In this document: in pieces, positions 35,862-36,125 of the stretch
How the letters are laid out: every line of letters begins with the position of its first letter
How positions within the stretch are numbered: the first letter of the stretch is position 1
Position numbers and translations under genes: made by a program
The notes under the pieces: model-generated
The model's database searches: none
Told to the model about the DNA's origin: nothing
Seen by the model: the letters and a program-made list of their open reading frames with translations, nothing else
Assembly: GCA_035221665.1 (NCBI GenBank)
Contig: CM069166.1
Coordinates: 13,330,001-13,394,000 of the forward strand
DNA: 64,000 nucleotides
Direction: 5' to 3'
Source of the DNA: Okamejei kenojei
Lineage: Eukaryota

Positions 35862-36125
35862 GTGTCAGCATCATCGGCTGAAAGAAGCAGCTGTTGGATT
35901 TGGCTCAAGCGGAAAGACCCATGCTGGGCCCCACATACGTCATGGTGAATCTTTGAGGCAGTTTGACACGGGACACGCGCTGAGGGCTGATCATCCTGCA
36001 GCGGGCCGCCCTTGTGGAGGGTGTATAGTGTTAAACGGCCGAAACACCCAGTGATGCAAGGGTACACTACTGATGATGTGTCCTGTACCCAACTGTCCTG
36101 AAGGTTACCCAGGCCAAGATATACG
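35862..36125 (+). mobile_element. HERO-like (restriction-like endonuclease) LINE 3' end with structured 3' UTR
   Basis: One frame reads ASSAERSSCWIWLKRKDPCW, matching the AE..S.W.WL.R...W C-terminus of HERO/R2-superfamily elements. The UTR contains gggtgt..gaaacaccc..ctgatgatgtgtcc. Confidence 0.65.

What the first reader, a model, noticed from the sequence alone, without database searches (positions are those of the whole stretch)
36008..36090. Hammerhead core with non-standard strand order in the 3' UTR of a HERO-like LINE
Seen: GGGTGT (36019-24) pairs with ACACCC (36044-49) directly after GAA, giving helix III with a GUA triplet (cut after A36025). TAGTGT (36026-31) pairs with ACACTA (36064-69) directly before CTGATGA (36070-76), giving helix I. 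gcccttgt (36008-15) / gcaagggt (36056-63) extends helix III. Helix II (cggcc against tgtgtcc) is weak. Known: type I/II/III hammerheads order their strands cyclically as UH, CUGANGA, GAAA. Here the order is UH, GAAA, CUGAUGA. Inference: this is either a pseudoknotted hammerhead in which a short linker (taaa) ties the distal ends of helices I and II, which are adjacent in the active fold, or a dimer/trans-acting form. Standard descriptors would miss this topology. It could define the element's 3' end. A competing hairpin gggtaca/tgtaccc (36060-66 / 36084-90) could act as a switch.
Basis: partly seen in the sequence, partly recalled or inferred. Interest (0 to 1): 0.8.

Follow-up and report, generated by a model that had tools for sequence, protein, structure and literature searches.

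The report
Re-wired hammerhead ribozyme in LINE tails
The tail of a widespread group of animal jumping genes keeps all the parts of a hammerhead ribozyme in a rearranged strand order, with a predicted kink-turn bend, and it likely cuts the element's chained transcripts into single units, though cutting is untested.

Summary
The motif is real. It lies in the 3' UTR of a 5'-truncated RLE-type LINE and is conserved across the clade: 46 of 62 protein-selected relatives have it in sense, 0 in antisense. The S-G-C order is type SGC (Eckert 2023), reported only from metatranscriptomes. The strand before GAAA pairs upstream (36004-07 with 36037-40), with 4 bp or more in 38 of 41 relatives against 14 when shuffled, and G10.1-C11.1 in 35 of 41. 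The RNA therefore enters at G10.1 and leaves at A9, an order that Eckert's block model excludes. The 'helix III extension' corresponds to SGC's I-II helix and joins stem III through a kink-turn pattern (27 of 41 strict). Full-length units almost always follow their own 3' end, and arrays share private variants. Best reading: a slow or gated ribozyme cuts head-to-tail transcripts into units that would circularise and be reverse-transcribed round the circle. Cleavage is untested; 5' ends at the cut are only modestly enriched (p about 0.01). Two earlier scan notes describe what seems the same motif on other DNA as a non-catalytic look-alike; I disagree.

The parts
35875..36250 (+). 5'-truncated copy of an RLE-type non-LTR retrotransposon (family A; full unit about 4.0 kb elsewhere in the genome); no target-site duplication seen
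   Evidence: 98-99% identity to the other scored copies; shared 3' end; unit 3998 nt; flanks
35877..35948 (+). Last codons and stop of the RT-RLE ORF
   Evidence: same C-terminus as the long ORFs of other copies, which carry Pfam RVT_1
35978..36003 (+). Hairpin P0 with a self-complementary 6-nt loop (35988-93), abutting G10.1; possible kissing-loop dimerisation site (inferred)
   Evidence: (palindrome flanked by a stem in 19 of 41; 13 of 771 control zones)
36004..36007 (+). Stem II, 10.x strand; G36004 = G10.1. Lies upstream of the cleavage site instead of after CUGAUGA
36008..36015 (+).
   Evidence: 173 of 192 cells paired, shuffled maximum 130
36016..36018 (+). Predicted k-turn, non-bulged strand (3n G, 2n G, 1n A)
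   Evidence: k-turn consensus recalled
36019..36025 (+). Stem III 5' strand and GUA triplet; predicted cut after A36025
36026..36031 (+). Stem I 5' strand
36032..36036 (+). Linker from stem I to stem II (UAR motif in 27 of 41; a UA-containing linker is also visible in the SGC-variant alignment)
36037..36044 (+). Stem II 11.x strand (C36040 = C11.1) and G12-A13-A14-A15.1
36045..36055 (+). Stem III 3' strand (k-turn C stem), 3-nt bulge 36050-52, 1b G36053, 2b A36054, 3b U36055
36056..36063 (+). Helix P4, 3' strand
36064..36076 (+). Stem I 3' strand and C3-U4-G5-A6-U7-G8-A9; the chain leaves the core here
36077..36250 (+). Remaining 3' tail with a variable poly-C tract; in arrays its end joins directly to the first base of the next unit

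Best explanation
The 3' UTR of this LINE clade holds a covarying hammerhead-type fold with a rearranged strand order and a predicted k-turn, which likely self-cleaves after A36025 and would cut head-to-tail transcripts into unit-length RNAs that likely circularise and serve as templates for reverse transcription. Strand order 5' to 3': stem II (10.x), P4, k-turn, stem III, UH, cut, stem I, linker, stem II (11.x), GAAA, stem III, k-turn, P4, stem I, CUGAnGA. It is type SGC with its free ends joined through a k-turn and re-opened between A9 and G10.1. The k-turn would bend P4 back along the II/III stack so that it clamps the far ends of stems I and II (inferred). A cut unit has its priming site only about 245 nt (family A) from its 5' end, so copying the ORF needs either a re-ligated circle or an uncut RNA (inferred). 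Shown: sequence, covariation, tandem junctions, array-private variants, distribution of 5' ends. Inferred: 3D fold, catalysis, protein binding at the k-turn, circles. My odds: fold 0.95, catalysis 0.75, circle route 0.45.
For: Relatives were chosen by protein alone; 46 of 62 regions have the core in sense and 0 in antisense. In 41 non-redundant motifs: stem I 231 of 246 cells paired (shuffled maximum 152), stem III 162 of 164 (130), P4 173 of 192 (130) (the first three pairs of stems I and III were required by the search). Upstream stem II reaches 4 bp in 38 of 41 (shuffled mean 14.3, maximum 21). On a protein tree (40 rows, median identity 45%) most pairs changed 6-17 times while staying paired. 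Hammerhead-specific signatures: position 7 is free (U25, C8, A5, G3); 10.1-11.1 is G-C in 35 of 41, a pair that PMC3088659 calls the most conserved after A15.1-U16.1; one relative reads U3-A8 and two read U3-G8, and C3-G8 to U3-A8 is the known covariation. The k-turn pattern is strict in 27 of 41 and looser in 32; L3 is U in 24 of 32. The two spans lengthen together (20/27 against 21/28-29 nt). Tandem life style: 221 exact tail-to-head junctions against 213 copies of a 5'-terminal 25-mer; 29 of 30 such loci have an upstream tail; family B 18 of 20; unit-distance repeats in 13 of 80 outside loci; units of one array share private variants, and array b units differ by 0.07-0.10% against 0.44% or more to other arrays. 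Family-A 5' ends: 5 at 0 to +2 from the cut, 0 at -4 to -1, 15 in the 35 nt further upstream.
Against: There is no cleavage assay and no raw RNA reads. More than a thousand genomic copies carry the motif intact (1322 pattern matches), and 64 of 90 upstream fragments run through the cut site, so any cleavage is incomplete or reversed. I found no precedent for a chain break between A9 and G10.1, and PMC10085705 assumes that block cannot be interrupted. The cut-site excess is small (p about 0.01, by hand), the window was set, and 0 of 18 family-B upstream fragments start at 0 to +2. Most of the excess of 5' ends (25 of 49) lies at +36 to +47, the 3' edge of the fold, which any stable structure would give. 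The triplet is GUU in 17 of 41 (a slower triplet, recalled), and H-not-G was required by my search (one failing locus has G). 9 of 41 lack the k-turn, and 3 lack a clear upstream stem II. Array-private variants also fit read-through of an existing array or later tandem duplication; arrays a, c and d are less uniform (0.37-0.70%).
Confidence: 0.55

Rival explanations
1. It is an active ribozyme used as R2 uses its 5' ribozyme. The copy in the upstream tail frees a linear element RNA from read-through transcripts, the downstream copy stays uncut, and no circle is involved.
For: Nearly every full unit carries an upstream tail. The rate of 5' ends is highest just downstream of the cut in these tails (0.18 per 100 nt at 0 to +123 against 0.05-0.08 upstream). 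One tail-plus-unit copy starts at +1 (L394). R2 5' self-cleavage from a co-transcript is described in passages of PMC13580325.
Against: 64 of 90 upstream fragments extend past the cut, many by more than 1.2 kb. A purely linear route cannot lengthen arrays, yet arrays of 3-4 units exist.
Confidence: 0.2
2. It is a non-catalytic 3' recognition fold for the element's RT that only looks like a hammerhead (the verdict of earlier scan notes e1-8034208 and e1-7941993).
For: Position in the 3' UTR, where LINE recognition signals lie (established knowledge). Copies join ORF and tail across the site. 5' ends pile up at the 3' edge of the fold. Literal SGC membership fails (0 of 41).
Against: The helix that 'holds away' the strand before GAAA sits exactly where stem II must be, next to G12, with G-C at 10.1-11.1 in 35 of 41 while the other pairs vary. 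No nucleotide is used twice in the four-helix model. Free position 7 and the U3-A8 variant are hard to explain by protein recognition. In family A the fold lies about 175 nt from the 3' end.
Confidence: 0.17
3. It is catalytic only as a dimer or in trans. The palindromic loop of P0 pairs two RNAs and strands are exchanged; arrays arise by template jumping within such dimers.
For: A palindromic 6-mer lies in the zone in 29 of 41 (control 128 of 771), inside a stem-loop in 19 of 41 (control 13 of 771). Stem II of family A is itself palindromic. Dimer cleavage of Penelope-associated hammerheads is in print (title seen in the supplement's references).
Against: About a third of relatives lack the palindrome. 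Linker lengths are tightly constrained, as for a single-chain fold. A dimer does not remove the A9/G10.1 break. Array-private variants argue against jumps between unrelated molecules.
Confidence: 0.08

Closest known systems
Type-SGC hammerhead ribozymes (HRIMA-1 and SGC variant; Eckert, Friedrich, Weinberg and Weinberg 2023, PMC10085705)
   Same: Block order S, G, C; short linker from stem I to stem II; a fourth helix joining the strand 5' of stem I's second strand to the strand 3' of stem II's 10.x strand; full core.
   Different: Stem II's 10.x strand is at the 5' end of the motif, so block C is split and the ends lie between A9 and G10.1. The fourth helix is continuous with stem III through a k-turn pattern. 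[quoted passage not shown] Cleavage is untested here.
Hammerheads of Penelope-like elements and retrozymes (Cervera and de la Pena 2014; Cervera et al. 2016, PMC4918200)
   Same: A hammerhead inside a terminally repeated or tandem retroelement; circular RNA intermediates for retrozymes (titles and abstract start seen; rest recalled).
   Different: Those are type I or III circular permutations (recalled). This is an autonomous RLE LINE with a non-circular permutation and a k-turn.
HDV-like 5' ribozymes of R2 and other LINEs (Eickbush and Eickbush 2010; Ruminski et al. 2011)
   Same: A self-cleaving RNA in an RLE-type non-LTR retrotransposon that could process co-transcripts (passages and titles).
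   Different: Different ribozyme class; those sit at the 5' end. Here the motif is 40-200 nt behind the ORF in most relatives and reaches the 5' side only through the head-to-tail repeat.
Standard kink-turn (Kt-7, U4, box C/D type)
   Same: C stem, 3-nt bulge, tandem G.A and A.G, then NC stem; purine-rich L1 and L2, U at L3 (consensus recalled; 60-degree angle from the abstract start of PMC2952850).
   Different: Embedded in a hammerhead; folding and protein binding not tested; replaced by a plain bulge in 9 of 41.
HERO clade of RLE non-LTR retrotransposons
   Same: Single RT ORF with a CCHC knuckle and a PD-(D/E)xK-like motif (motifs recalled); dispersed insertions, as PMC4640811 says of HERO; relatives in fish, lamprey, lancelet and bivalves.
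   Different: No named HERO reference was available, so clade membership was not tested.

Membership tests
Hammerhead ribozyme | Core C3 U4 G5 A6 N7 G8 A9, G12 A13 A14, A15.1-U16.1, H17 | tested here: met
   Window copy complete; 46 of 62 protein-selected regions; N7 free. Of the 16 misses, 13 show a recognisable motif by eye (mismatched stem, single core change, deletion or U3 variant) and 3 do not.
Hammerhead ribozyme | Stems I, II and III abutting the core, with covariation | tested here: met
   stem II only with the upstream partner. On the MAFFT alignment stem II columns pair in only 47-57% of cells because of a 1-nt register shift between subgroups; the anchored count is.
Hammerhead ribozyme | G10.1-C11.1 preference | tested here: met
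   35 of 41; C before G12 in 35 of 41 independently of the helix search
Hammerhead ribozyme | A9 covalently followed, within 0-2 nt, by the 10.x strand of stem II | tested here: not met
   Downstream partner no better than shuffled; no conserved helix between the two flanks either (5.23 against 5.16)
Hammerhead ribozyme | Site-specific self-cleavage after H17, lost with a G5 change | not testable with these tools
   Only an indirect genomic hint
Type-SGC hammerhead (Eckert 2023) | Block order S, G, C | tested here: met
Type-SGC hammerhead (Eckert 2023) | Intact block C; published descriptor | tested here: not met
   0 of 41 pass; 9 of 41 match the core strings but lack the 2-bp downstream stem II
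Type-SGC hammerhead (Eckert 2023) | Fourth helix tying stems I and II | tested here: met
   P4 has the same strand neighbours; 173 of 192 cells paired in the 32 k-turn rows
Types I, II, III hammerhead | Cyclic order S, C, G; Rfam models | tested here: not met
Kink-turn | 3-nt bulge followed by G.A and A.G pairs between two helices | tested here: met
   27 of 41 strict; 32 of 41 allowing C or U at 2n, of which L180 and L185 have no NC stem in that register
Kink-turn | Kinked geometry; binding of L7Ae/15.5K | not testable with these tools
   none
RLE non-LTR retrotransposon | RT followed by a CCHC knuckle and a restriction-like endonuclease; 5'-truncated copies with a shared 3' end | tested here: met
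   Pfam RVT_1; motifs read (recalled consensus); weak hit to an R2 protein structure, E 9e-4; truncation pattern
HERO clade | RT phylogeny grouping with named HERO elements | not tested

The most novel reading that the evidence does not exclude
A seventh natural hammerhead topology, opened between A9 and G10.1 and clamped by a protein-bindable k-turn, is carried by a whole clade of animal LINEs. It makes them replicate like viroids or retrozymes: ribozyme-cut unit RNAs circularise and the RT copies round the circle, so these LINEs have no fixed 5' end. 15.5K/L7Ae binding or kissing-loop dimerisation gates the cut.
Probability: 0.35. Interest if true: 0.95.

Novelty: new variant of a known kind. 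Interest (0 to 1): 0.85.

Why it matters
If it cleaves, it breaks the rule that the hammerhead has three indivisible blocks and six orders (PMC10085705). It would bring non-circular permutations from anonymous metatranscriptome RNAs into vertebrate and invertebrate genomes, with more than a thousand copies in this genome, and would be a natural ribozyme braced by a k-turn, and so potentially switched by a host protein. It also speaks to a puzzle that paper raised: how the far ends of stem III and of the I-II helix can be directly joined. For retrotransposon biology it offers a testable route by which an autonomous LINE forms exact head-to-tail arrays and might use circular templates. The decisive test is one in vitro transcription.

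Tried and rejected
Rfam scan: no ribozyme match. Nested MFE folding: not informative. My first idea that the competing hairpin was SGC's I-II helix: rejected, since it is absent in family B and not conserved; P4 fills that role. A closing helix between the two flanks at A9/G10.1: none. The cut as the element's 3' end: rejected. A hard 5' end of full-length copies at the cut: rejected. The p value of 9e-5 printed: withdrawn, because 3 of its 8 copies belong to a third family. Expression: no RNA holder listed; the runs laid were contigs only and show no starts or ends; a closer look at one depth step in run X5 was not obtained. Viral contigs: no relative of the protein; 26 pattern matches, none with the full set of stems. 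Earlier scan notes by sequence: none.

Full report
OBSERVATION. The site is in a 376-nt, 5'-truncated copy (35875-36250) of a young repeat: 1509 first-look candidates, 40 scored, 98-99% identical. The copy keeps the last ORF codons. Longer copies encode RT (Pfam RVT_1) followed by a CCHC knuckle and a restriction-like endonuclease motif (motifs recalled). Protein relatives are named from fish, lamprey, lancelet and bivalves (452 hits, 120 listed). It is an RLE LINE; 'HERO' is a recalled label that I could not test. Rfam finds nothing here.

WHAT IS KNOWN. The order UH, GAAA, CUGAnGA is type SGC of Eckert et al. 2023 (PMC10085705; I read main-text parts 1-6 of 8, i.e. all but most references, supplement parts 1, 8 and 19 of 42 and search passages). 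SGC RNAs cleave in vitro, need a fourth helix tying stems I and II, and were not found in genomes of known organisms although RefSeq was searched. The paper treats CUGAnGA with its flanking stem I and stem II strands (block C) as indivisible.

HOMOLOGUES. A looser pattern finds 1322 matches in this genome against 4 for the reversed control, including a second family, B, with a GUC triplet and two compensatory changes in stem I. A third family, C, appeared later. To avoid bias I fetched outside relatives by protein alone: an alignment of 37 proteins gave 78 metagenome loci (the best 80 of 263 were kept) and 2 from bacterial assemblies, probably contaminants. Of the 62 with at least 200 nt to scan, 46 hold the S-G-C core with stems I and III in sense and none in antisense. 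Removing near-duplicates and adding the window copy and one family-B copy left 41 of 49 motifs. Stem I pairs in 231 of 246 cells and stem III in 162 of 164, against shuffled maxima of 152 and 130 (the first three pairs of each were required by the search). On an unedited MAFFT alignment the model scores 209 cells with two-sided change against 76.5 shuffled and beats all slid registers. On a protein tree (40 rows, 1 dropped for frameshift; identity 22-84%) most pairs changed 6-17 times and stayed paired, so these are many events rather than one inheritance.

STEM II IS UPSTREAM. The strand before GAAA does not pair with what follows CUGAnGA (10 of 41 reach 4 bp; shuffled 10.2). It pairs with a strand 20-21 nt before the cut (38 of 41; shuffled mean 14.3, maximum 21). 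In the window this is 36004-07 with 36037-40. The pair next to G12 is G-C in 35 of 41, the hammerhead's G10.1-C11.1, which PMC3088659 (passages) calls the most conserved pair after A15.1-U16.1. So the chain enters the core at G10.1 and leaves at A9; block C is split. None of the 41 passes the published SGC descriptor, which likely explains why RefSeq searches missed it (inference). Insertions at this link are common in SGC (U after A9), so the backbone there is tolerant, but I found no report of a break.

THE EXTENSION IS A FOURTH HELIX BEHIND A K-TURN PATTERN. Helix P4 (36008-15 with 36056-63) follows the 10.x strand of stem II and precedes the second strand of stem I, the same neighbours as SGC's I-II helix. 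Between P4 and stem III lies a 3-nt bulge followed by G.A and A.G: strict in 27 of 41, looser in 32 (two of these have no NC stem in that register), with U at L3 in 24 of 32 (consensus recalled). A k-turn sets its helices at about 60 degrees (abstract start of PMC2952850), which would send P4 back towards the far ends of stems I and II (inferred; no 3D model was built). The 9 rows without it mostly use a plain bulge, and several cluster on the tree. The two spans lengthen together. Directly 5' of G10.1 sits a hairpin whose loop is a 6-nt palindrome in 19 of 41 (13 of 771 control zones).

IS IT CATALYTIC? For: the whole core is kept while position 7 and H17 vary freely (16 and 18 changes); G10.1-C11.1; one relative with U3-A8 and two with U3-G8, matching the known C3-G8 covariation (a single sequence, possibly decayed). 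Against: no assay; GUU in 17 of 41; genomic copies span the site. Genomic 5' ends give two signals. In a 55-nt window over the fold, 49 of 70 examined matches (of 77) are true truncations, against 13 of 30 examined (of 46) in an upstream control window; 25 of the 49 lie at +36 to +47, the edge that RT meets first. This suggests the fold forms on the template but does not show cutting. At the predicted cut, 5 family-A copies start at 0 to +2, none at -4 to -1, and 15 in the 35 nt upstream. Expected 1.3, p about 0.01 by hand, with the window set after and three family-C copies removed. Among 18 family-B upstream tails none starts at 0 to +2.

TANDEM ORGANISATION. Copies occur in head-to-tail arrays of 2-4 units, with one exact junction and a truncated first unit. 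The junction 24-mer occurs 221 times and the adjacent 5'-terminal 25-mer 213 times; 29 of 30 loci of the latter carry an upstream tail. Family B does the same (18 of 20), and 13 of 80 outside loci show repeats at 3.6-4.4 kb (many are too short to show one). Of 90 distinct junction loci with an upstream fragment (95 examined), 26 fragments start downstream of the cut, 32 within 1.2 kb upstream and 32 further: the element has no fixed 5' end. Units of one array share private variants (f 7, d 3, b 2, c 2); b units differ by 0.07-0.10%, while a, c and d differ by 0.37-0.70%. Solo 3' ends often continue with the first bases of the next unit (T in 72 of 87, then G in 28 of 72). This fits one template read past its junction, as on a circle or a long read-through RNA; later duplication is not excluded.

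MECHANISM. Shown: the covarying fold, the arrays, the 5'-end pattern. Inferred: read-through transcripts are cut once per unit, slowly or under control of k-turn binding or dimerisation. A cut unit has its priming site about 245 nt from its 5' end, so copying it gives only the short tails seen starting at the cut (L393, L397, L400, L403). Re-ligated circles, or uncut RNA, give ORF-bearing copies and arrays. Odds: fold 0.95, catalysis 0.75, circle route 0.45. Rivals: R2-like release of a linear RNA (0.2), non-catalytic recognition fold (0.17), dimer-only activity (0.08).

NOVELTY. Ten searches of the held library returned no paper describing this motif in LINEs, a hammerhead opened at A9/G10.1, or a natural hammerhead with a k-turn. 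I judged most hits by listing only, and read passages of PMC7650587, PMC4640811, PMC13580325, PMC13725137 and PMC3088659. Subscription journals, Repbase Reports and bioRxiv supplements are not covered, and 39 of 42 parts of the Eckert supplement were seen only through a search. Two earlier notes of this scan (e1-8034208, e1-7941993) describe what seems the same motif in other genomes and reject it because a needed strand sits in another helix. I could not see their loci, but in my set that helix has the position and the G-C signature of stem II. Verdict: a new variant of a known kind; it works like a type-SGC hammerhead by inference, but is not a member by the published definition.

Noticed in passing
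window 35978-36003; homologues L153-L232: A conserved hairpin directly 5' of stem II often has a self-complementary 6-nt loop (four different palindromes seen), suggesting kissing-loop dimerisation of the LINE RNA.
   Followed up: partly
G000 arrays, e.g. C1:43892000-43918000, C1:103541000-103560000: Exact head-to-tail arrays of about 4.0-kb units; nearly all full-length units are preceded by the element's own 3' end, in two families here and in several outside contigs.
   Followed up: yes
L199:3790-3850; L159, L162: Core variants U3-A8 and U3-G8 in one branch of relatives.
   Followed up: partly
L401, L402, L405: A third related family (C) in this genome with a different stem I second strand, A at position 7 and a different tail.
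   Followed up: no
L180, L187, L191, L201, L202, L203, L212, L213, L215, L173: Relatives that replace the k-turn with a plain bulge or internal loop; useful natural controls for the role of the bend.
   Followed up: partly
L231, L232: Short contigs in two bacterial assemblies carry this animal-type LINE (L232 with the full motif); likely host contamination.
   Followed up: no
window 36135-36147: Poly-C tract in the family-A tail varies from about 10 to over 70 nt between copies; several 5' ends map to it.
   Followed up: no
window 36016-36051, run X5: Contig depth over this part is about ten times that of its neighbours in one run; the cause is unknown (possibly a related family sharing this stretch).
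   Followed up: no
window 40101-40946, - strand: Degraded reading frames with a motif that I recall as a GIY-YIG endonuclease of Penelope-like elements.
   Followed up: no
window 32238-33015, - strand: Fragments of an RT-like frame of another, older LINE family (recognition recalled).
   Followed up: no
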